Source: Zavarzinella sp.
Lineage (GTDB): Bacteria; Planctomycetota; Planctomycetia; Gemmatales; Gemmataceae
NCBI GenBank assembly: GCA_043744795.1
Contig: JAYTTY010000234.1
Location: 993-64,992, forward strand
Length of the DNA: 64,000 nucleotides
Direction: 5' to 3'
The notes under the pieces are model-generated. The model was given only the letters and a program-made list of their open reading frames with translations. It searched no databases and was not told the origin of the DNA. Position numbers and translations under genes: made by a program. Numbering within the stretch: the stretch's first letter is position 1; every line of letters starts with the position of its first letter. This document shows positions 9,318 through 55,882 of this stretch, one piece after another.

Positions 9318-10634
9318 TTACCATCTTGGTTTGAAGGATTCGTCCTTGGGCCGTTGGGCGAGCAGCCCGGCGGCAATCTTGCTCAAACAGCGGCACGCGC
9401 CCCGGTACGCGGTGACGTAGTCCCCGTCTTGGCCGGCCTTGCCGGCCACTTCCATCTGGGATTTGAAGTTGACCCAATCGACTTTCGCGCCCTTCGCCTC
9501 GGCGTGTTCCTTCAATTGTTTCGCGAAATTCATGGCCCGTGAGACGGCCCCCGCGTCGATGCGCACCGGGTATTGCCGGTACACGCTCGCCCGCGTGGGG
9601 GCCTCTTCCGGGACGGCCGGCTTGCCTTGCTCGCGGCGGTGCCGGGCCACCAAGCCAACCATCCCCCCGATGATCGCCATCATCGACCCGGCAAAGAGCG
9701 GGTAGCCGATGCTCTGCAAGCCGCTGACCATGCACGCGATGAATCCGACGGCTAGTAACAGCCCGAGCATCAGCACACTGATGGGCCACGGGACCAAGCG
9801 GTTGTAATTGGCCACGAGCTTGCCCGCGCCGTTGAAGAACGACGCGCCGGGCGCGGCCTTGCCGACCAGCGAATCCCGGGCCGAGCCGACGCGGACGAGG
9901 ATCACGGTGATGTTGTCCGGCCCGCCGCGCAGGTTGGCGAGATCGATCAGGAACTTGGCCGCCTCCTCCAACGGCATCACGCCGATCACCGCCCCAATTT
10001 CCTCGGGCGGGACCATGTTGCTCAGGCCGTCGCTGCACAAGACGAACGTATCCCCGTCCTCCAACGGGTATGGACCTTCGATGTCGACCTGCACTAAGGG
10101 GTCCGGCCCGAGCGAGCGGACGATCACGTTTTTCTTGATGTCCCCGAGTTCCTCGGGCGGAATGCCGAGCCGCTTGGCCATCTCCCAGGCGTAGCTGTGG
10201 TCGTAGGTGAGTTGCTGGACATGGTTCTGTCGGACGCGGTAGGCCCGGCTGTCCCCGACGTGGGCGACCCACGCGCCTTCTTCGCGGATCACCAAGCCGG
10301 TCGCCGTCGTGCCCAGACCCTTGAACTCCGGGTTGGACGTGCCGATGGCGTGGATGCCGGCGTTGGCCTCCTGGAACGCCAGGCGCAACGCGGCGGCCGG
10401 GCCGTCCCGGACGTGTTTCACGTAGGTGAGGGGGATTTCTTGGACGGCCCTCGCGGAGGCCTTCTCGCCGACCGCGTGGCCCCCCATGCCGTCGGCCACG
10501 ATGAACAGGTGGCCGACTTCCTGCCAGTGTTCCTGGTCGGTGGCCTTCTGCACGAAGAAATTGTCTTGGTTGTGGCTCCGCTTCGAGCCGACGTCCGTCT
10601 GCCCGGCGTGTTCGATCGACTTGAAGAAGGGCAC
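9318..10634 (-). CDS. PP2C/PPM-family Ser/Thr protein phosphatase with two TM helices and a C-terminal domain
   Basis: TDVGSKRSHNQD, VADGMGGH, LGTTATG, HVGDSRAY, LCSDGL, GGPDNIT motifs. Confidence 0.93.
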   Translation of the reverse strand: MPFFKSIEHAGQTDVGSKRSHNQDNFFVQKATDQEHWQEVGHLFIVADGMGGHAVGEKASARAVQEIPLTYVKHVRDGPAAALRLAFQEANAGIHAIGTSNPEFKGLGTTATGLVIREEGAWVAHVGDSRAYRVRQNHVQQLTYDHSYAWEMAKRLGIPPEELGDIKKNVIVRSLGPDPLVQVDIEGPYPLEDGDTFVLCSDGLSNMVPPEEIGAVIGVMPLEEAAKFLIDLANLRGGPDNITVILVRVGSARDSLVGKAAPGASFFNGAGKLVANYNRLVPWPISVLMLGLLLAVGFIACMVSGLQSIGYPLFAGSMMAIIGGMVGLVARHRREQGKPAVPEEAPTRASVYRQYPVRIDAGAVSRAMNFAKQLKEHAEAKGAKVDWVNFKSQMEVAGKAGQDGDYVTAYRGACRCLSKIAAGLLAQRPKDESFKPRW

Positions 10635-10765
10635 GACTCCCCCTCCTTCACGGGTGGGACGAGATCAATCCATCCATGATAAGCATCGGACGGGCGGAAA
10701 GAACAGTCAAGAACCCGTCGGCCTTTTCCGGGCCAGTTGCCGGCCCGCCCACCGCTGTAACCCCA

Positions 10766-25474: not shown

Positions 25475-25548
25475 GTGAGCCGAGGGCCGTCAGGCCCCGG
25501 GTGGTGCGCTCCAGCCCCTCACCCGGCGGCTTACGCCGCTCGGCTCAC
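25475..25548. repeat. REP-like composite palindrome
   Basis: GTGAGCCGAG/CTCGGCTCAC outer arms, CCGGGTG/CACCCGG inner arms, side hairpins GGCCGTCAGGCC and CGGCTTACGCCG. Confidence 0.75.
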
Positions 25549-25589
25549 AATGCAGGTCATTCAATTCGATCCGCCTTACAATCAACTTC

Positions 25590-26483
25590 ATGAGCATTGC
25601 CCCCTCTCCAGGCCGCCAATTTCGTGACGCGGTCGCCGCGGAAAAGCCGCTCCAGGTCGTCGGGGCGATCACGGCGTACACGGCCCGCATGGCCGAGGTG
25701 ACGGGCTTCAAAGCCCTTTACCTTTCCGGCGGCGGCGTGGCCGCCAACTCGCTCGGCCTTCCCGACTTGGGCATCAGCACGATGGAAGACGTGCTGACGG
25801 ACGCCCGCCGCATCACCGACGCGACGACGTTGCCGCTGCTCGTGGACATCGACACCGGGTGGGGCGGGGCGTTCAACATCGCGCGGACGATTCGCTCAAT
25901 GATCAAAGCCGGCGTCGCCGCCGTCCACATGGAAGACCAAGTCGGCGCCAAGCGCTGCGGCCACCGGCCCGGGAAGGAAGTCGTTTCCACGGCGGAAATG
26001 GTTGACCGCATCAAGGCGGCCGTGGACGCCCGCACCGATTCGGACTTCGTCGTCATGGCCCGCACCGACGCCGTCGCCGGCGAAGGGGTGGACGCCGCGG
26101 TCGAACGGAGCCGGGCCTACGTCGCGGCCGGGGCCGACATGATTTTCGCGGAGGCCGTCACCAACCTCGCCGATTACGCGAAATTCAAGCAAGCGGTCCG
26201 CGTCCCCATCTTGGCCAACGTCACCGAATTCGGCAAAACACCCTTGTTTACGACAGAGCAATTGGCCGGAGTCGGCGTGGACATCGTCCTCTATTGTTGT
26301 TCCGCGTACCGGGCGATGAACGCGGCGGCCCTCCGCGTGTATCGAGCCATCCGGTCGGACGGCACGCAACAGAATGTCGTCCCGACCATGCAAACGCGGG
26401 CCGAGTTGTACGACTTCCTCGGCTACCAAGCCTACGAGCAGAAACTCGACGAGTTGTTCGCCAAAGGAAAACTCCATGAGTGA
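25590..26483 (+). CDS. prpB: 2-methylisocitrate lyase
   Basis: [41 protein letters not shown] signature. Confidence 0.96.
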
Positions 26484-27630
26484 CGCCCCCGCCCCCGCCT
26501 TCAAGCCGAAGAAGTCCGTCGCGCTCTCGGGCGCCGTCGCCGGCAACACGGCCCTTTGCACCGTCGGCCGCACCGGCAACGATTTGCACTACCGCGGCTA
26601 CGACATTCTCGACTTGGCAACGGCCTGCGAATATGAGGAAATTGCCCACCTGCTGATTCACGGCACGCTGCCCAGTGTGACCGAACTGAAGGCGTACAAG
26701 GATAAACTGAAAAGACTTCGCGGGATCCCCGCCGCCGTGAGAACCGTGCTGGAACAACTCCCGCCGACGGCCCACCCGATGGACGTTTTGCGGACCGGGG
26801 TTTCCGCCCTCGGGTGCGTGACGCCCGAACACGACGGTCATGACCCGGCGGGCGCGCGCGACATCGCCGACCGCCTGCTCGCCTCGCTCGGGTCCATGCT
26901 GGCGTACTGGCATCACTTCGTCGTCCATGGCCGCCACATCGAAGTCGAGACGGACGACGACGCCATCGGCGGGCATTTCCTTCATTTGCTGCACGGGAAA
27001 CCGCCCGCCGCGTCGTGGGGGCGGGCGATGCACACCAGCCTGATTCTGTACGCCGAACACGAGTTCAACGCTTCCACGTTCACCGCCCGCGTGATCGCCG
27101 GCACCGGGTCGGACCTGTTCTCTTGCATTGCCGGCGGGATCGGCGCGCTGCGCGGCCCGAAGCACGGCGGGGCCAACGAAATCGCCCTCGACATCTTGGA
27201 GCGGTACGACACCCCCGGCGAGGCAGAACAAGACATTCGCCGCCGCGTCGCCGCCAAGGAAGTCATCATCGGCTTCGGCCACCCGGTCTACACCGTCTCG
27301 GACCCGCGCAACAACGTCATCAAAGAAGTGGCCCGGCAACTGTCCGCGGAAGCCGGGGACAACAAGTTATTCGCCATCGCCGAGCGGTTGGAAGCCGTGA
27401 TGTGGGACGCCAAGAAACTGTTCCCGAACCTCGACTGGTTCAGTGCGGTGAGTTATCACCTCATGGGCGTGCCCAAGGCGATGTTCACCCCGCTGTTCGT
27501 GATCGCCCGCACGGCCGGCTGGGCGGCCCACGTCATCGAGCAGCGCGCCGACGGCAAGATCATCCGGCCGTCCGCCCATTACGTCGGCCCCGAGAACCGG
27601 CCGTTCGTCCCGCTTCAAGAACGACTCTGA
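26476..27630 (+). CDS. prpC: 2-methylcitrate synthase
   Basis: KKSVALSG...[52 protein letters not shown]. Confidence 0.95.
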
Positions 27631-27642
27631 ACCCGGAACCCC

Positions 27643-29115
27643 ATGTCCCACCCCATCAGCAACGTGCGCCCGGCCCCCGACGCTGTTTTGGCCGACATCG
27701 CGGACTACGTTACGTCGTTCGAAATCAGAAGCGACCTAGCTTTCGAGACGGCGCATTACTGCCTCCTCGACACGCTGGGGTGCGGCTTGGAAGCCTTGGA
27801 ATACCCGGCCTGCACGAAGTTATTGGGGCCGGTCGTGGCGGGCACGGTCGTGCCGAACGGGGCCAAGGTTCCCGGCACGCCGTTCCAACTCGACCCGGTG
27901 CAGGCGGCGTTTAACATCGGGGCGATGATCCGCTGGCTGGACTTCAACGACACGTGGCTGGCGGCCGAGTGGGGCCACCCGTCGGACAACTTGGGCGGCA
28001 TCCTCGCCGTCGCCGACTGGCTGTCCCGCACCGCCGTCGCGGCCGGCAAGCCGCCGTTGGTGATGCGCGACGTGCTGACGGCCATGATCAAAGCCCACGA
28101 AATCCAAGGCTGCCTCGCCTTGGAGAACTCGTTCAACAAGGTGGGCCTCGACCACGTCATCCTCGTCAAGGTCGCGTCCACGGCCGTCGTCGCGCACATG
28201 CTCGGGCTGACGCGGGACGAGATCATCAACGCCGTCTCGCTGGCGTGGGTGGACGGCCAAAGTCTGCGGACGTACCGGCATGCCCCGAACACCGGCTCGC
28301 GAAAAAGCTGGGCGGCCGGCGACGCCACGAGCCGGGCCGTGAAACTGGCCCTCATCGCCCAAGCCGGCGAGATGGGCTACCCGTCCGCGCTCACGGCCAA
28401 GACGTGGGGCTTTTACGACGTGTCGTTCAAGGGCCAGCCGTTCCGCTTCCAGCGGCCGTACGGCAGTTACGTGATGGAGAACGTGCTCTTCAAAATCAGC
28501 TACCCGGCCGAGTTCCATTCGCAGACCGCCGTCGAAGCGGCGATGACGCTCCGCGGCCGCTTGCTCGCCAGTGGAAAATCAGCCCAAGACATTCGCAAGG
28601 TGACGATCCGAACACACGAAGCGTGCCTGCGAATCATCGACAAGACGGGGCCGTTAAACAACCCGGCCGACCGCGACCACTGCGTCCAATACATGATCGC
28701 CGTCCCGCTGATTTTCGGCCGACTGACGGCCGCCGACTACGAGGACGCCGTGGCGCACAACCCGCGCATCGACGCCCTGCGGGCCAAAATGGATTGCGTG
28801 GAAGTCCCCCAATTCACCGCCGACTACCACGACCCGGCAAAACGGTCCATCGCCAATTCGCTCACCGTCGAACTGGCCGACGGCGCCACGCTGACCGAGA
28901 CCGTGGAATACCCCGTCGGCCACCGCTGCCGCCGCGCGGAAGGCATGCCCCTGCTCGTCGAGAAGTTCAAAACCAACTTGGCCCGGCGGTTCGACGCCGC
29001 CCAGCAAGGGGCGATTTTGAACGCCTCGCTCGTCCGGGACAAATTGGAACGGTTGCCCGTCCACGAATACGTGGACTTATACGTCGCCGGTTTCAAGCCC
29101 CTGGCCAGCCACTGA
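27643..29115 (+). CDS. prpD: 2-methylcitrate dehydratase
   Basis: [62 protein letters not shown]. Confidence 0.96.
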
Positions 29116-51103: not shown

Positions 51104-54100
51104 TTACCACCCGTGACTTCGGGCCACCCGCGCGACGTCGGCGTGCTTCAGCAATTCCCGCAGAGTCGCGTCCTTTTCGACTTGGTCGCGCCAGAAGGCC
51201 GCCCGGCCGTCCGGCGGGACCAAGCCGGCGGCCCGCATGAGCAGTTCCGCCGCGTGTTCTTGGTAGAGCAGGGCCGTCGCCACGTCGCCGGCGGCCGGCC
51301 CGAGCCGGGCGGCGCGGGCGTACACGCTCGCCAAGTTGCACAGCAGCGTTGATGTGGGTTTATCCGCGTGACGAAGGGACTTCTCCGCGGTCGCCACGGC
51401 TTCGGCCCCCTTGCCTTCCAGCGACAGAATCTGCGCCCGGCCGCACAGGGCGTCCGCGAGGTCGGGCTTCGCGGTCAGCGCCGCGTCGAAGTCGGCCCGC
51501 GCCAAGGGCAGCGATTGGGCCTGCAAGTAGGCCCAGCCGCGGTAGTTCAACACCTGCGGATCGTCCTTCAACTTCAACGACTGCGAGTAGGCCAAGGCCG
51601 CCGGCGAATATTCCCGCCGGGCGGCGTGGATCAACCCGCGCGCCCGGTAAAGCTCCGCGTCCGGCGCTTTGGCGAGGCACTTGTCCAACGCCCTGCCCGC
51701 CTCGGCATGTTTGCCGAGGGCCAAAAGCGTTTCGGCCCGCTGCCGGTGGGCCGGTACGAAGTCATCAACCACCATTAAGGCCGCGTCGTACTCGGCCAAG
51801 GCGCCGGCGAGGTCTTTTGCGGTGTGCTTCAGGTAACCCAACTCGACATGAGCGCTGGCCAGCCAACGGTCGCCAAGCCGCCCGCCCGCTTCAATAGCCT
51901 TTTCATAGTCGCGCCGCGCCAGGGCATCGGCGTTTGCCTTGCGGTGGAACTGAGCGCGGGTGTAGTAAAGCTGCCCGTCCGCCGGCTGGGCCGCGATCAC
52001 GCGGTCCAGCGCGCCCAACGCGGCCGGGTCGTCGCCGAGCCGGCGGTAAATTTCGGCCAAGTTGAGGTCGGCCTGATAGCCCCCGGCCGGGCCGATGGCG
52101 GCCGCCGCGGCGAAGGCGTCGCGGGCGTCGGCCCACTGCTCGCGGATCGACGCCAGTCGGCCGCGGGTCATGTGCATGAGATACCGGGCCGCCGGCTCAG
52201 CCGCGTCGCCGGCGGCCGACAAGTCCGCCGTGGCGCCCTCGACGTTCCGCATCTCGACGCGGGCCTGCGCCCGCAGCACGCGGGGCCAGACGGCGTCCGG
52301 CCGCTGCGTCACGCACGTCGTCAGCCACGCATCGGCCAAGGCCCACTGTTGCTGCCGGAGGTGGCACAAGCCTTGCAAGTACGGCGGCCAAAAGTAGCCC
52401 GGCTCCAGCCGCACCGCCTCCTCGCACCGGCGGACCGCGGCGGCGAATTTGTCGTTCCGGTAGTCGGCCACCGCCGTCAAAAAATGGTCCAAGGCCGAGG
52501 CCGGCGGCCGGGCGGCCAGAGCAAGGTCCGCTTTCGCGGCGTCGGCATCGCCGAGCGCGGCGGCCAACGCCGCCCGGCGCGCGTACAGCGCGTTGGGGAC
52601 GGGCACTTGGTGCGCCGCGGCGACGGCTTCCGCGGCGGTCAGCGCCCGGACCGCCGTCTTCCCTTCTTCGGCTTCCGCCCAAACGAACAGCGCTTCGCAA
52701 CACCACCGGGCGGTTTGCCGGCGCTGCGCGTCCGACTGAAAATAACGGGCGACCGCCGAGAGCGGCTTGTCCCCAGCGCCGGCCGTGTCGATGTGGAACG
52801 CGGCCAGCGCAGCCGGGGCCAGCTTGGTGATGGCGAGGCGGTCGCCCGCCCGGCCGGCCGCGTCCACGCTCAAATGACGGAAGAGCAGTTCGTCCCGGTC
52901 CCGGCCCAACTGGGCGACCGCCGCCTGAACACGGTGCCGCGCGCCTTGATCCGTCGCCAAGTCACCTGCTTGGCGCCGCACGTCGAGCAGTCGAGATTCG
53001 ACCTCGGCCCGCAGTGTCTCGTCACCGGGGTCGCGCGACGCGGCGAGGACGGCCACCGCCTGTTCCATCGCGCCCGCGGCTTCCGCGAGATGTCGCGTTG
53101 CCGCGGGGGAGTCGTCGCGGGCCAAGGCCTGTCGGCCGTCCGCTTCCGCTTCGCGGCCGCGCACCCACAAGTCGTCGGCTTGACGGCGGCGTTCGCCCTG
53201 TTGCCGTAAGACGCGCGTCCGCTGCTCGGCGTAGAGGCCGTAAATCCCCGCCCCGAGGCACCCGAGGCAGACTGTGAGGAATACCGTGCCGGCCAAGGCG
53301 GGCCGGCGGCGCGCCCACTTGATCCCACGTTCCAGCAGGCCCACCGAGCGGGCCAGAATCGGCTCCGCGGCGAGGAAGCGGCGCAAGTCTTCCGCGAGGT
53401 CGGCGCAGCCGGGGTATCGTTTCGCGGGGTCTTTCTCCAGCGCCTTCAGGCAGATCGTTTCGAGGTCGCGGGGGATATTCCGCCGCAGTCTGCGGGGGGG
53501 CGACACCGGCTCGTGCTGGTGCAGGTACATTTGCTGGGCGATGCCGCCGGCGAACGGCGTCCGGCCCGTCAGCATTTGGTAGAGGGCGCACCCGAGACTG
53601 TACTGGTCGCTGGCGGCGATGCCGTTCCCGTCGATTTGTTCCGGCGCCATGTAGGCCGGCGTCCCCATTGCCGTGCCTTCCTGCGTCAGCTTTTCGTCCC
53701 CCGCCGCCGCGCGGGCCGCCAAGCCGAAGTCCAACAGCAGTGGCTCGCCGGCCTCGTCCACCATCACGTTTTGCGGCTTCACGTCCCGGTGGACGACCCC
53801 CTGCGAGTGGGCGTAAGCCATCGCCGCCGCGAGCAGTCGCGTGACGCGGGCGGCGTCGGCGGCAGGCATCGGCGTCCCGCCGGCCGCGTGGCCTTCGATC
53901 ACCGCCTCCAAGGTCTTGCCGGCGATGTACGCGGAGGCGATGTAGCAGCGGTCGTCCTGTTGCCCCGCCTCGAACAGCGGGACGATGTTCGGGTGCCGCA
54001 GGTTCCCCGCCGCCTTGGCTTCCCGAAAAAACCGCTCGCGTCGCTCGGCCGTGCCGAGCGTCCCCGGCTTGGCGAGTTTCAGCGCCACGTCGCGGTCCAA

Positions 54101-54559
54101 CTGCGGGTCGTAGGCTTGGTAAACCTCGCCGAACGCCCCCTCGCCGAGTTTCTTCCGAAGCACAAACCGGCCGACGCGGGGTTGAAACGGCGCCGTCGTC
54201 CCCATTCCCGGCCCTTCCGCGCCGGGGACGTAAGTGATCGTCTCGCGGTCGGACAGCCGGGCCGGTGGCAAGTCGATTGTCACCGAACCCGACACTGGCA
54301 CAACGGGGGTTCGCCCGTTGGTACTCGCATGAGTCGGCAGATCCAGTGTGACGGCCCCTGGGGGAAGCGCCATTGGCGTTTGGCCGTTGGTCCCCGGACG
54401 GGTCGCCAAGTCGAGTGTGATCGCGCCGGCCGGGACGGCGGGCGTTTGGCCGTTGGCCCCGGCGTTGGTCGGCAGGTCGAGCGTCGCCGGCAGTAGCGGG
54501 CCGCCGCCGCCGAAGACCAGAGTCTCCTTGGCGTTCGGCGGGCGCGTCGAACCGGACAT
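51104..54559 (-). CDS. Membrane Ser/Thr protein kinase with C-terminal TPR array and N-terminal Thr-rich tandem repeats
   Basis: LGEGAFGEV, VALK, HRDVKPQN, DFG, GTPAYMAPE; TM segment ALAGTVFLTVCLGCLGAGIYGLY; many TPRs. Confidence 0.95.
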   Translation of the reverse strand: MSGSTRPPNAKETLVFGGGGPLLPATLDLPTNAGANGQTPAVPAGAITLDLATRPGTNGQTPMALPPGAVTLDLPTHASTNGRTPVVPVSGSVTIDLPPARLSDRETITYVPGAEGPGMGTTAPFQPRVGRFVLRKKLGEGAFGEVYQAYDPQLDRDVALKLAKPGTLGTAERRERFFREAKAAGNLRHPNIVPLFEAGQQDDRCYIASAYIAGKTLEAVIEGHAAGGTPMPAADAARVTRLLAAAMAYAHSQGVVHRDVKPQNVMVDEAGEPLLLDFGLAARAAAGDEKLTQEGTAMGTPAYMAPEQIDGNGIAASDQYSLGCALYQMLTGRTPFAGGIAQQMYLHQHEPVSPPRRLRRNIPRDLETICLKALEKDPAKRYPGCADLAEDLRRFLAAEPILARSVGLLERGIKWARRRPALAGTVFLTVCLGCLGAGIYGLYAEQRTRVLRQQGERRRQADDLWVRGREAEADGRQALARDDSPAATRHLAEAAGAMEQAVAVLAASRDPGDETLRAEVESRLLDVRRQAGDLATDQGARHRVQAAVAQLGRDRDELLFRHLSVDAAGRAGDRLAITKLAPAALAAFHIDTAGAGDKPLSAVARYFQSDAQRRQTARWCCEALFVWAEAEEGKTAVRALTAAEAVAAAHQVPVPNALYARRAALAAALGDADAAKADLALAARPPASALDHFLTAVADYRNDKFAAAVRRCEEAVRLEPGYFWPPYLQGLCHLRQQQWALADAWLTTCVTQRPDAVWPRVLRAQARVEMRNVEGATADLSAAGDAAEPAARYLMHMTRGRLASIREQWADARDAFAAAAAIGPAGGYQADLNLAEIYRRLGDDPAALGALDRVIAAQPADGQLYYTRAQFHRKANADALARRDYEKAIEAGGRLGDRWLASAHVELGYLKHTAKDLAGALAEYDAALMVVDDFVPAHRQRAETLLALGKHAEAGRALDKCLAKAPDAELYRARGLIHAARREYSPAALAYSQSLKLKDDPQVLNYRGWAYLQAQSLPLARADFDAALTAKPDLADALCGRAQILSLEGKGAEAVATAEKSLRHADKPTSTLLCNLASVYARAARLGPAAGDVATALLYQEHAAELLMRAAGLVPPDGRAAFWRDQVEKDATLRELLKHADVARVARSHGW

Positions 54560-54640
54560 GGCGTGGACCCGATTAACAGGGGGACAAGCGCCAGTGTACC
54601 AGCAATCAGCCGGTGCGCCAAACCGATGGCATGCTTGGAG

Positions 54641-55882
54641 TTAGCCCAACGCCTTTGCAAACGCCGCCACGTCCGCGTGCCGGTCTTCCGGCCGGAGGGC
54701 CATCGCCTTGGCGACGGCGGCGGACATCGCGGGCGGGGTGTCCGGCCGGAGGCGGGTGGCCGGCGGGGCGGTTTCCGTCAAGAGGCGGCGGAACAGGTCG
54801 GCGTGGTTCGTCCCGGCCGGGTGCGGGAATTCCCCGGTGAGCAGGTAATAGATCGTCGCCCCGGCCGAGTATTGGTCCCCGGCCGGCTTCACCGTGCGGA
54901 AGTCCCGCACTTGTTCCGGCGGCATGAACGCGGGCGTCCCCATCGCTTGGCCGGACAGCGTCAGCCCGCTGAGGGGCGAGTCTTGGTAGGCGCGGGCCAA
55001 GCCGAAGTCGGCCACTTTCACGGTCCCGTCGTCGGCCACCAACACGTTCGCCGGCTTGATGTCCCGGTGGATGTACCCGGCTCGGTGGGCGTGGGCGAGG
55101 CCGGCCAACATGCCGGCCGCGATGCGGCGCACGTCGGCGATCGGCAGCCCCCCGGCCTTCTTCGCCTCCTTCACGGCCGTCGATGCGTCTCGGCCGCGCA
55201 CGAGTTCCATCACGAAAAAAAGGATGCCGTTCTCCTCGCCGAATTCTTCGAACCCGACGATGTTCGGGTGCGTCAGCCGCCGCAAGATGTCGGCCTCCCG
55301 AATGAACCGGCCGACCACCGCCGCGGTCGGGGTGACGGCCGGCTTGATCGTCTTCAAGGCCACGACCCGCCCGTCCGACTCGCGCACGGCCCGGTACACG
55401 TCCCCCATCCCGCCGCCGCCGAGCCGGTCCGCGATGGCGTAGCCGCGGAACAAGGGGGGCCGGCCGGCGGCGGACACTTCCCCGGTCGCCTCGCCCGAGG
55501 GCAACTGGGTGACGGTGGTCGGCTCTTCCGTGCGGGCCGCGGCGCCCGGCCCCGGCAGTGATTGCGTAATAGCCTCCCCGTCTTGCCCGGCCAACGTCAC
55601 CCGGAGGGTGGACGTTCCGACTTCGATGAGATCGCCGTTGCGCAGGGGGGACTCGCGGAGCTTTTTGCCGTTGACCAAAGTGCCGTTGCGACTGCCGAGG
55701 TCAGTCAGATGCGCCAGTGGCGGGTTGACTTCCACCAGAAAGTGGACGCGGGAAAGGTAGTCGTCGTGCGGCAGGCTGAAGGCGGCGTCCGCCGACCGCC
55801 CCACGAGGAACGTCGAGTGACGGTCGAACGAGAACGACGTTCCCAGCAGCGGTCCGGCGACCACGTCCAAGGTGATGGCCAT
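54641..55882 (-). CDS. FHA-domain Ser/Thr protein kinase, soluble
   Basis: FHA motifs VGRS, SRVH, DLGSRNGT; kinase motifs LGGGGMGDV, VALK, HRDIKPAN, DFG, GTPAFMPPE. Confidence 0.95.
   Translation of the reverse strand: MAITLDVVAGPLLGTSFSFDRHSTFLVGRSADAAFSLPHDDYLSRVHFLVEVNPPLAHLTDLGSRNGTLVNGKKLRESPLRNGDLIEVGTSTLRVTLAGQDGEAITQSLPGPGAAARTEEPTTVTQLPSGEATGEVSAAGRPPLFRGYAIADRLGGGGMGDVYRAVRESDGRVVALKTIKPAVTPTAAVVGRFIREADILRRLTHPNIVGFEEFGEENGILFFVMELVRGRDASTAVKEAKKAGGLPIADVRRIAAGMLAGLAHAHRAGYIHRDIKPANVLVADDGTVKVADFGLARAYQDSPLSGLTLSGQAMGTPAFMPPEQVRDFRTVKPAGDQYSAGATIYYLLTGEFPHPAGTNHADLFRRLLTETAPPATRLRPDTPPAMSAAVAKAMALRPEDRHADVAAFAKALG

What the first reader, a model, noticed from the sequence alone, without database searches (positions are those of the whole stretch)
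54266..54487. Four tandem T-[LI]-D-L repeats: a probable multivalent FHA docking array next to an FHA-kinase
Seen: the cytoplasmic N-terminus of the TPR kinase has 22-23 aa repeats with TLDL at T26, T48 and T71, TIDL at T94, and NG[QR]TP three times. The gene immediately upstream is an FHA-kinase. Established: many FHA domains select pThr with Asp, Ile or Leu at +3. Inference: autophosphorylation of these Thr residues recruits several FHA-kinase copies, forming a eukaryote-like kinase cascade or amplifier in which repeat number tunes the gain.
Basis: partly seen in the sequence, partly recalled or inferred. Interest (0 to 1): 0.7.

Follow-up and report, generated by a model that had tools for sequence, protein, structure and literature searches.

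The report
Threonine docking repeats on a kinase tail
The disordered N-terminal tail of a planctomycete membrane kinase carries four copies of a threonine motif (T-L-D-L-P) found throughout its kinase family and in the neighbouring FHA-kinase family, so it is most likely a set of phosphorylation sites that recruit FHA domains, though nothing here shows phosphorylation or binding.

Summary
The TPR kinase K1 (window 51104-54559, minus strand) has TLDL at T26, T48 and T71, TIDL at T94, and NG[QR]TP three times. The underlying 66-69 nt DNA repeats are 73-80% identical. None of 200,000 shuffles of the tail gave three or more copies.

The motif is not a local oddity:
- T-[LIVM]-x-[LFIMV]-P occurs 63 times in the pre-kinase tails of about 100 homologous planctomycete kinases, against 4.7 expected.
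- It is almost absent after the kinase domain and in unrelated kinases.
- The residue before LDLP is Thr in 43 of 43 cases. The Ser version is not enriched.
- About half of the close relatives of the neighbouring FHA-kinase K2 carry the same motif about 10 residues after the FHA domain. K2 itself has TQSLP.

FHA-kinase and K1-type kinase genes recur as neighbours in the window, in Zavarzinella formosa and on seven metagenome contigs. There are exceptions. AlphaFold2 predicts the tail as disordered and gives no confident docking.

Best reading (confidence 0.5): these are phospho-acceptor sites that, once phosphorylated, dock FHA domains, chiefly that of K2. Phosphorylation, binding and gain tuning by copy number are untested. 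This is a new variant of a known kind. Interest 0.5.

The parts
51104..54559 (-). K1: receptor-type Ser/Thr kinase, 1151 aa (disordered tail, kinase domain, one TM segment, TPR region)
   Evidence: ORF and translation. Pfam Pkinase at residues 134-382 (E 1.6e-48) and TPR families at about 800-973. Orthologues are 74% and 69% identical, the latter from Zavarzinella formosa.
54170..54559 (-). K1 N-terminal tail, residues 1-130, predicted disordered
   Evidence: AlphaFold2 on K1 1-400 gives pLDDT 36-48 and no secondary structure for residues 1-121. No Pfam or NCBIfam family covers it.
54470..54484 (-). Motif copy 1, T26-L-D-L-P
54404..54418 (-). Motif copy 2, T48-L-D-L-A (lacks the +4 Pro)
54335..54349 (-). 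Motif copy 3, T71-L-D-L-P
54266..54280 (-). Motif copy 4, T94-I-D-L-P
54509..54526 (-). E-T13-L-V-F-G, a conserved N-terminal T-hydrophobic-x-aromatic site of the ET[LIVM] class
   Evidence: Conserved in all three orthologues. ET[LIVM] occurs 32 times against 10.4 +/- 3.2 expected in family tails.
54224..54244 (-). E-T107-I-T-Y-V-P, a conserved site just before the kinase domain
53414..54160 (-). K1 kinase domain (residues 134-382) with the catalytic motifs VALK, HRDVKPQN and DFG
   Evidence: AlphaFold2 pLDDT above 90.
53231..53299 (-). K1 transmembrane segment (residues 421-443)
   Evidence: Highest Kyte-Doolittle 19-residue window, mean 2.0
54641..55882 (-). K2: soluble FHA-kinase, 413 aa, immediately upstream of K1 on the same strand
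   Evidence: Pfam FHA and Pkinase. No hydrophobic segment. The orthologue in Z. formosa sits in the same position.
55592..55882 (-). K2 FHA domain (residues 1-97) with the phosphothreonine-binding residues G28 R29 S44 R45 H47 N66 G67 N71
   Evidence: These residues are invariant or nearly invariant in 28- and 79-sequence alignments. Nearest solved structures are M. tuberculosis Rv0020c/FhaA (E 2e-9), GarA and OdhI.
55553..55567 (-). K2 linker motif T106-Q-S-L-P, at the position where relatives have TLDLP
   Evidence: Alignment columns read 'TLxLP' in the family consensus. Among 39 relatives with the motif, its median position is 10 residues after the last FHA strand.
54680..55441 (-). K2 kinase domain (residues 148-401)
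   Evidence: AlphaFold2 pLDDT about 90-98.

Best explanation
The four T-[LI]-D-L(-P) sites, probably together with T13 and T107, are copies of a short linear motif, consensus [A/V]-T-L-[D/S/P]-L-P, embedded in a Pro/Ala-rich disordered cytoplasmic tail.

Proposed mechanism (inferred):
1. When K1 is activated through its periplasmic TPR region, it or a related kinase phosphorylates these threonines.
2. Each pT-x-x-L site then becomes a ligand for an FHA domain, most probably that of the soluble FHA-kinase K2 encoded next door.
3. The membrane kinase thereby recruits one or several K2 molecules.
4. K2 carries a variant of the same motif (TQSLP; TLDLP in relatives) about 10 residues after its FHA domain. 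That is probably too close to reach its own binding site. Once phosphorylated, it would favour FHA-pThr pairing between K2 molecules or release from K1, as in Chk2/Rad53/TIFA-type activation.

Shown here: the repeats exist; the motif is enriched across the family, strictly Thr, and in a predicted disordered region; the FHA binding residues are intact; the two gene types recur as neighbours; copy number varies.

Inferred: phosphorylation, FHA binding, which FHA protein is the partner, and any consequence of multivalency.
For: 1. Motif enrichment. T[LIVM]x[LFIMV]P occurs 63 times in the pre-kinase tails of K1 homologues, against 4.7 +/- 2.2 after shuffling. With a slightly narrower pattern the density is 4.4 per 1000 residues before the kinase domain and 0.04 after it. 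In 97 unrelated kinase ORFs from random loci, 23 of them planctomycete, it is 0 to 0.46 per 1000.
2. Strict Thr. The residue before LDLP is T in 24/24 K1-type and 19/19 FHA-kinase cases and never S. S[LIVM]x[LFIMV]P occurs 2 times against 4.5 expected.
3. Position +3 is Leu in about 80% of cases and otherwise V, I, M or F. Position +2 varies among D, S and P. According to PMC3138270, six M. tuberculosis Ser/Thr kinases prefer Thr with hydrophobic residues at +3 and +5, and the Rv1827 and Rv0020c FHA domains select hydrophobic residues at pT+3. PMC7164672 reports Leu/Val at +3 for PknA-dependent sites.
4. K2's FHA domain is closest by sequence to exactly those domains: Rv0020c at 2e-9, then GarA and OdhI. 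It keeps the GR...SRxH...NG residues.
5. The same motif lies in the FHA-kinase linker of 39 of 79 close K2 relatives. Its offset from the FHA domain is fixed (mostly 9-12 residues), while its distance to the kinase domain varies from 21 to 84 residues.
6. Gene neighbourhood. FHA-kinase lies next to a K1-type kinase in the window, in Z. formosa and on contigs seen, with one near neighbour. Six of the nine partner kinases carry 1-4 strict motifs.
7. The tail is predicted disordered and does not dock on K1's own kinase domain.
8. Internal repeat units are more alike within a genome (15/22 and 17/22) than between genomes (at most 13/23), and copy number differs.
Against: - There is no phosphorylation or binding evidence of any kind.
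- The AlphaFold2 pseudo-fusion of K2 with the K1 tail gave pLDDT 32-43 over the tail. Only marginal rises to 50 or above appeared, at K1 residues 71-73 and 96-98 and at K2 residues 108-111. AlphaFold2 cannot model phosphate, so this is inconclusive rather than negative.
- The 74% identical orthologue in L002 keeps TIDLP repeats but has a cyclase-type gene upstream, not an FHA-kinase.
- P0055 has the motif, but no FHA-kinase lies in the 10 kb downstream. Its upstream side is cut off.
- L104/L107 hold a TLDLP-type FHA-kinase with no partner kinase.
They show adjacency where the two co-occur, not how often pairing happens.
- Only 10 of 91 FHA-kinases in a 50%-identity representative sample have the linker motif, so it marks a subfamily.
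- Motif instances are phylogenetically related, so the counts overstate independence.
- Strict Thr also fits the preference of the kinases alone.
Confidence: 0.5

Rival explanations
1. The threonines are phosphorylated, but the phosphosites act without FHA domains. They could regulate K1 directly through charge or conformation of the tail, set autophosphorylation-dependent activity, or be read by a non-FHA partner. This has been proposed for the multiply phosphorylated juxtamembrane domain of StkP in streptococci, which lack FHA domains.
For: - Strict Thr with a hydrophobic residue at +3 matches the acceptor preference of bacterial Hanks kinases by itself.
- PMC12077195 describes seven phosphothreonines in the StkP juxtamembrane domain in an organism without FHA domains.
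- The L002 orthologue keeps the repeats without an adjacent FHA-kinase.
Against: - A stereotyped 5-residue motif with a conserved +1 Leu, +3 Leu and +4 Pro points to a specific reader rather than a charge effect.
- The same motif sits at a fixed offset from the FHA domain in the FHA-kinase subfamily.
- The two gene types recur as neighbours.
Confidence: 0.2
2. The motif is a docking motif that works without phosphorylation. An extended L-x-L-P peptide would bind a hydrophobic groove on a conserved partner, for example the kinase domain of a paired kinase in trans or a scaffold, with Thr playing a structural role.
For: - The conserved positions are mostly hydrophobic (+1 L, +3 L, +4 P).
- No acidic residues are enriched upstream, unlike the M. 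tuberculosis acceptor motifs.
- AlphaFold2 drew short strands at every motif when K2 was present in the chain and none in K1 alone, all at low confidence.
Against: - Thr is invariant with no Ser, Ala or Val substitutes in 43 LDLP instances, which is unusual for a purely structural position in a disordered peptide.
- No confident docking appears on either kinase domain or on the FHA domain in the two models.
Confidence: 0.15
3. The repeats fold into a small beta structure or beta-solenoid-like module. The T-L-D-L segments would be amphipathic strands, not docking sites.
For: - The alternating pattern T-L-D-L is strand-like.
- DSSP called strands at K1 residues 13-16, 25-29, 48-52, 70-74 and 93-97 in the pseudo-fusion model.
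Against: - Those strands have pLDDT below 50 and disappear in the model of K1 1-400, where residues 1-121 have no secondary structure and pLDDT 36-48.
- The flanks are Pro/Ala/Gly-rich.
- In homologues the motif occurs 0-4 times with spacings from 11 to 88 residues, which does not fit a fixed fold.
Confidence: 0.05
4. The array is a neutral, recent expansion of a low-complexity segment with no function of its own.
For: Lineage-specific duplication is evident in the DNA. Copy number varies among orthologues.
Against: The motif core is conserved across paralogous kinases with different C-terminal domains (TPR, WD40 and others) and in a second protein family, while the spacers diverge.
Confidence: 0.03

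Closest known systems
Phosphorylated juxtamembrane region of M. tuberculosis PknB recruiting the FHA protein FhaA (Rv0020c), and FHA recruitment of GarA
   Same: - A disordered segment next to the catalytic domain of a bacterial receptor Ser/Thr kinase carries autophosphorylated threonines that dock FHA domains (summarised in PMC12077195).
- K2's FHA domain is most similar by sequence to Rv0020c and GarA, which select hydrophobic residues at pT+3.
   Different: [quoted passage not shown]
- The sites are a stereotyped, repeated 5-residue motif.
- The proposed reader is itself a kinase and carries the same motif.
- Nothing has been tested biochemically.
Rv1747 / PknF module of M. tuberculosis
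   Same: - A kinase gene lies next to a gene for an FHA protein.
- Threonines in a disordered linker with hydrophobic +3 residues (T150/T152, T208/T210) are phosphorylated and bound by FHA domains. This gives multivalent FHA-pThr contacts, higher-order assembly and membrane clustering.
   Different: - In Rv1747 the FHA domains and the pThr sites are in one ABC-transporter polypeptide with two FHA domains.
- Here the multivalent sites are on a receptor kinase, and a single FHA domain is on a second kinase.
Rad9 (or Mrc1) - Rad53 and Chk2 T68 - FHA activation in eukaryotic checkpoint signalling; TIFA pT9 - FHA oligomerisation (from my own knowledge)
   Same: - A cluster of phosphothreonines on an upstream protein recruits several copies of an FHA-kinase and promotes trans-autophosphorylation.
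- A phosphothreonine close to the FHA domain of the effector drives intermolecular FHA-pThr pairing.
   Different: - The eukaryotic clusters are S/T-Q sites written by PIKK kinases. Here the motif is T-L-x-L-P, and the writer would be a Hanks-type receptor kinase.
- There is no sequence relationship beyond the FHA and kinase folds. This is an analogy, not membership.
Planctomycete WD40/TPR membrane Ser/Thr kinase expansions (PMC11032199)
   Same: The architecture is the same: a cytoplasmic Pkinase domain, one TM segment and periplasmic TPR or WD40 arrays. FHA is listed among the accessory domains.
   Different: In the passages retrieved by the term search, that study does not describe a motif in the pre-kinase tail or pairing with FHA-kinases.

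Membership tests
FHA-domain phosphothreonine ligand (pT-x-x-hydrophobic/Asp site) | Position 0 is Thr; FHA domains reject pSer | tested here: met
   xLDLP has x = T in 43/43 cases. The Ser version of the motif occurs 2 times against 4.5 expected.
FHA-domain phosphothreonine ligand (pT-x-x-hydrophobic/Asp site) | The +3 residue is of a type selected by FHA domains | tested here: met
   +3 is Leu in about 80% of cases and otherwise V, I, M or F. Rv0020c and Rv1827 FHA domains select hydrophobic +3 residues (PMC3138270), and these are the nearest solved relatives of K2's FHA.
FHA-domain phosphothreonine ligand (pT-x-x-hydrophobic/Asp site) | The site lies in an accessible, disordered segment in the same compartment as an FHA domain | tested here: met
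   pLDDT is 36-48 with no secondary structure. The tail is on the kinase side of the single TM segment, and K2 has no TM segment.
FHA-domain phosphothreonine ligand (pT-x-x-hydrophobic/Asp site) | The threonine is actually phosphorylated | not testable with these tools
FHA-domain phosphothreonine ligand (pT-x-x-hydrophobic/Asp site) | Phosphate-dependent binding to an FHA domain | tested here: inconclusive
   The AlphaFold2 pseudo-fusion without phosphate gave pLDDT 32-43 over the tail, with marginal rises at two motifs. The method cannot represent phosphothreonine.
Functional FHA domain (K2 residues 1-97) | FHA fold with the conserved Gly-Arg, Ser-x-x-His and Asn-Gly binding residues | tested here: met
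   PF00498 at E 3.8e-14. G28 R29 S44 R45 H47 N71 are invariant and N66 G67 nearly invariant. pLDDT is 83-95.
Active Hanks-type Ser/Thr kinases (K1 and K2) | Gly-rich loop, VAxK lysine, HRDxKxxN catalytic loop and DFG | tested here: met
   Both sequences carry these motifs. Pfam Pkinase at E 1.6e-48 and 3.2e-45.
Checkpoint-type SQ/TQ cluster domain (Rad9/Rad53/Chk2) | Clusters of S-Q/T-Q sites | tested here: not met
   The K1 tail motif is T-[LI]-D-L, and none of the four sites is followed by Gln. Only K2's TQSLP happens to contain TQ, where relatives have TLDLP.
Internal tandem duplication | Head-to-tail copies detectable in the DNA | tested here: met
   Three in-register copies, 73-80% identical, spaced 66-69 nt. 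Independent repeats occur in the two orthologues. They fall below Tandem Repeats Finder thresholds.
Conserved FHA-kinase / receptor-kinase gene pair | The two genes are neighbours across genomes more often than chance | tested here: inconclusive
   They are neighbours in the window, in Z. formosa and on seven contigs. Six of those look-ups were pre-selected and all come from one sample. Counter-examples are L002, L104/L107 and P0023. No unbiased rate was obtained.

The most novel reading that the evidence does not exclude
Gemmataceae may wire part of their expanded kinome through a modular relay from a receptor kinase to an FHA-kinase, written in a single code, [A/V]-T-L-x-L-P.
- The receptor's disordered tail would display one to four copies. 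Once phosphorylated, these would recruit and concentrate the soluble FHA-kinase.
- The FHA-kinase has one copy at a fixed offset of about 10 residues from its FHA domain, which would force pairing in trans.
- Gene pairs would have multiplied by duplication while the periplasmic sensor (TPR, WD40 or other) was swapped.

This would be a bacterial phosphothreonine counterpart of ITAM-Syk or Rad9-Rad53 signalling. Multivalency could drive membrane clustering like that of Rv1747.
Probability: 0.3. Interest if true: 0.75.

Novelty: new variant of a known kind. Interest (0 to 1): 0.5.

Why it matters
Planctomycetes of the Gemmataceae carry about a hundred Ser/Thr kinases each (PMC11032199), and almost nothing is known about how these connect. 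A short, easily recognised Thr motif shared by the tails of many receptor-type kinases and by the linker of one FHA-kinase subfamily gives a concrete, testable wiring rule: which kinases may talk to which FHA proteins. It also gives exact residues to mutate. If confirmed, it would extend FHA-pThr docking, known from single sites in mycobacteria, to a repeated multivalent code linking two kinases.

Tried and rejected
- Tandem Repeats Finder on the region found nothing at its thresholds. The repeat showed up only with the seed-and-extend tool.
- A protein search with the tail alone returned nothing at E <= 1, probably because of composition filtering. I therefore could not ask whether non-kinase proteins carry TLDLP arrays.
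- The genome-contig scan with the full FHA-kinase alignment was swamped by generic kinase patterns. I reused it only as a negative control.
- The metagenome scan with the FHA-only alignment mostly returned a different FHA-kinase subfamily, with a zinc-ribbon linker, and short contigs. Only one independent TLDLP-type locus had usable flanks.
I entered the pseudo-fusion as letters with X at the stop.
- AlphaFold2 output gives only pLDDT and secondary structure, so I could not inspect contacts. Both models leave the tail at low confidence.
- NCBIfam and Pfam have no model for the tail.
- The full-text search for 'TLDLP' found nothing relevant.
- I rejected NG[QR]TP as a family-wide element, because TP occurs 116 times against 122 expected.
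- I rejected cis-docking of the tail on K1's own kinase domain.
- The PP2C gene at 9318-10664 is about 40 kb away and lacks an FHA domain, so I did not link it to this pair.
Full report
THE OBSERVATION

The region lies in a gene on the minus strand (51104-54559). It encodes a 1151-aa protein, here K1, with these parts:
- an N-terminal tail of about 130 residues;
- a Pkinase domain at residues 134-382;
- one strongly hydrophobic segment at residues 421-443;
- a TPR region.

The tail reads ...KETLVFGGGGPLLPA-TLDLP-TNAGA NGQTPAVPAGAI-TLDLA-TRPGT NGQTPMALPPGAV-TLDLP-THAST NGRTPVVPVSGSV-TIDLP-PARLS... The given coordinates span codons A25 to P98.

The DNA keeps three in-register copies, 73-80% identical, at 66-69 nt spacing. 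None of 200,000 shuffles of the tail produced three or more T[LI]D[LI].

The upstream gene on the same strand (54641-55882, here K2) is a 413-aa soluble FHA plus Pkinase protein. The closest relatives of both proteins are from Zavarzinella formosa (69% and 75% identity). The flanking genes are typical of planctomycetes, for example a DUF1559 protein with an N-terminal methylation motif. The source is therefore a Gemmataceae bacterium.

WHAT THE REPEATS ARE

The main result is that TLDLP is not peculiar to this gene. In the pre-kinase regions of about 100 of the 120 best K1 homologues, T[LIVM]x[LFIMV]P occurs 63 times, against 4.7 +/- 2.2 after shuffling each tail. These homologues are receptor-type kinases with TPR, WD40, sulfatase-modifying or other C-terminal domains.

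With a slightly narrower pattern, the density is 4.4 per 1000 residues before the kinase domain and 0.04 after it. In 97 kinase ORFs from unrelated loci, 23 of them planctomycete, it is 0 to 0.46 per 1000.

The consensus is [A/V]-T-L-[D/S/P]-L-P in a Pro/Ala-rich context. It appears even in the majority consensus of the family alignment.

The residue before LDLP is Thr in all 24 cases in K1-type tails and all 19 cases in FHA-kinases, and never Ser. The Ser version of the pattern is not enriched: 2 observed against 4.5 expected. TP is not enriched either (116 against 122), so NG[QR]TP belongs only to the local repeat unit. ET[LIVM] is about threefold enriched, which fits the conserved ETLVFG at T13.

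Homologues carry 0-4 copies at irregular spacings of 11-88 residues.

Among the three close orthologues the copy numbers are 4 (window), 3 (Z. formosa: TLDLP, TLDLP, TLVLP), and 2 plus a degenerate TIDQP (metagenome orthologue). Internal units are more similar within a genome (15/22 and 17/22) than between genomes (at most 13/23). Each orthologue has its own DNA repeats. The array therefore grows and shrinks lineage by lineage while the motif core is kept.

THE FHA-KINASE CARRIES THE SAME MOTIF

In 39 of 79 close relatives of K2, the FHA-kinase linker contains the motif: TLDLP in 18, and otherwise TLSVP, TQSLP, TRSLP and similar. It mostly sits 9-12 residues after the last FHA strand, while its distance to the kinase domain ranges from 21 to 84 residues. 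K2 itself has TQSLP (T106), and the Z. formosa orthologue has TRSLP.

In a sample of representatives at 50% identity, only 10 of 91 FHA-kinases have the motif, and 22 have a zinc ribbon in the linker instead. The motif therefore marks the K2 subfamily, not FHA-kinases in general.

GENE NEIGHBOURHOOD

Cases of adjacency or near adjacency:
- The order FHA-kinase, then TPR kinase, then a roughly 5000-aa secreted repeat protein is the same in Z. formosa.
- Nine members of the K1 hit list and nine of the K2 hit list sit on contigs of identical length. I looked up six of the nine FHA-kinases. In five, the FHA-kinase is directly next to the K1-type kinase, in tandem, convergent or divergent orientation. 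In the sixth it is two small genes away.
- A seventh K1-type kinase with two TLDLP copies, looked up without prior knowledge, also has an FHA-kinase immediately upstream.
- Six of the nine partner kinases carry 1-4 strict motifs. Two have evidently truncated N-termini. One has TRNLP and TQTLP.

Limits on this evidence:
- Six look-ups were chosen because co-occurrence was already suspected, and all come from one metagenome.
- The 74% identical orthologue in L002 has a cyclase-type gene upstream.
- P0055 has no FHA-kinase downstream, and its upstream side is cut off.
- P0023 (no motif) has none nearby, and P0013 (no motif) has one 8 kb away.
- The only independent TLDLP-type FHA-kinase locus with usable flanks from the metagenome scan has no partner kinase.

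Pairing is therefore recurrent but not obligatory, and I could not measure its rate without bias.

HOW THE MOTIF FITS KNOWN PHOSPHOTHREONINE CHEMISTRY

K2's FHA domain keeps the Gly-Arg, Ser-Arg-x-His and Asn-Gly residues that hold phosphothreonine. By sequence it is closest to M. tuberculosis Rv0020c/FhaA (E 2e-9), GarA/Rv1827 and OdhI.

PMC3138270 states that six M. tuberculosis Ser/Thr kinases prefer a Thr acceptor with hydrophobic residues at +3 and +5. It also states that the Rv1827 and Rv0020c FHA domains select hydrophobic residues at pT+3, so kinase and FHA specificities overlap. PMC7164672 reports Leu/Val at +3 for PknA-dependent sites.

T-L-D-L has Leu at +3. The upstream acidic preference of the mycobacterial kinases is not seen here.

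STRUCTURE PREDICTION

K1 1-400, predicted with a 64-sequence alignment, has a confident kinase domain and a tail (1-121) with pLDDT 36-48 and no secondary structure. The tail is therefore predicted disordered and does not dock on its own kinase domain.

I also predicted a pseudo-fusion of K2, the 26 in-frame intergenic codons and the K1 tail, using K2 homologues as the alignment. The FHA and kinase domains were confident. The tail had pLDDT 32-43, with short strands drawn at each T-hydrophobic-x-hydrophobic site. pLDDT reached 50 or more only at K1 residues 71-73 and 96-98 and at K2 residues 108-111. AlphaFold2 has no phosphate and I could not see contacts, so this neither supports nor refutes FHA docking.

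MECHANISM

The best-supported reading is that the motif threonines are phospho-acceptors and that the phosphorylated motif is an FHA ligand. K1 would use its tail to recruit the soluble FHA-kinase K2, possibly several copies at once. K2's own copy of the motif is probably too close to its FHA domain for binding in cis. That is my geometric estimate, by analogy with TIFA, and is not tested. Once phosphorylated, it would mediate pairing between K2 molecules or hand-off from K1.

What is shown stops at sequence, conservation, disorder and neighbourhood. All the biochemistry is inferred. I put this reading at 0.5.

Rival readings:
- Phosphosites that work without FHA domains (0.2).
- A phosphorylation-independent hydrophobic docking motif (0.15).
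- A small beta module (0.05).
- A neutral repeat expansion (0.03).

COMPARISON WITH WHAT IS KNOWN

FHA docking on autophosphorylated threonines next to a bacterial receptor kinase is known, for example the PknB juxtamembrane region with FhaA (summarised). So are multivalent FHA-pThr assemblies encoded next to their kinase, as with Rv1747 and PknF.

The Rad9-Rad53, Chk2 and TIFA paradigms (from my own knowledge) match the proposed logic, but their sites are S/T-Q clusters or single sites. This is therefore analogy, not membership.

I did not find the following described:
- a stereotyped repeated T-L-x-L-P motif in the N-terminal tails of planctomycete receptor kinases;
- its presence at a fixed offset in an FHA-kinase subfamily;
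- the recurrent pairing of the two gene types.

The passages retrieved by a term search of the survey of planctomycete kinases (PMC11032199) do not mention these features, and a full-text search for TLDLP found nothing relevant. The literature tool covers open-access papers only.

VERDICT

This is a new variant of a known kind, of moderate interest.

Noticed in passing
window 30594-50879 (-); L001 11774-19465: K1 is followed on the same strand by a 5031-aa protein and then a 1729-aa FG-GAP repeat protein. The Pfam families for the first (SBBP, SdrD_B, Peptidase_C11, PPC) come from its Z. formosa counterpart. The order K2, K1, giant protein is the same in Z. formosa. Other K1-like TPR kinases are followed by giant proteins of about 1900-2030 aa, two of them with FG-GAP repeats. 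The TPR kinases may be functionally tied to these giant secreted proteins.
   Followed up: partly
window 54560-54643 (-): K2 and K1 are in the same reading frame, separated by a single TAA stop and 26 sense codons. In Z. formosa the genes are also in frame, but a second in-frame stop lies in the spacer. This is probably coincidence.
   Followed up: partly
L094, L098, L112, L113, L134, L143, L144, L146, L148, L149, L152, L153, L158: A different FHA-kinase subfamily has a CxxC...CxxC zinc ribbon in the FHA-kinase linker instead of TLDLP. In the three sequences read it has an unusual HRDIKEQN catalytic loop. A kinase of about 470-650 aa lies 1.1-1.8 kb downstream on the same strand, without the motif. 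This looks like a second kind of paired-kinase locus.
   Followed up: partly
proteins P0241-P0244: Cluster representatives of about 2450-2600 aa each match the FHA-kinase profile in six separate stretches, so they are probably multi-kinase polyproteins.
   Followed up: no
K1-family tails (P0026, P0027, P0047, P0053-P0055, P0063, P0101, P0105, P0107): Many K1-type kinases start with a CPxC...CPxC zinc ribbon just before the TLxLP motifs. The family consensus reads MxxxCPxCxxxxxxxxCPxC...TLxLP...RIGRF. K1 itself lacks the ribbon.
   Followed up: no
window 9318-10664 (-): A PP2C-type phosphatase has a hydrophobic C-terminal half that is probably membrane-anchored. It lies about 40 kb from the kinase pair.
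   Followed up: no
L104 1138-4399 and L107: A TLDLP-type FHA-kinase lies next to a convergent WD40-repeat protein that has a coiled-coil-like N-terminus but no kinase domain. It may be a partner that lost, or never had, the kinase part.
   Followed up: partly
window 25479-29115 (+): Three consecutive genes have PEP-mutase/isocitrate-lyase-like, citrate-synthase and MmgE/PrpD domains. They look like a methylcitrate-cycle (prpB-prpC-prpD) cluster.
   Followed up: no
L002 2-1531: In the orthologous locus that lacks the FHA-kinase, the gene upstream of the TPR kinase ends in what looks, by eye, like a nucleotidyl-cyclase domain. I did not run a domain search. If correct, a different signalling protein occupies the FHA-kinase's place.
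   Followed up: no
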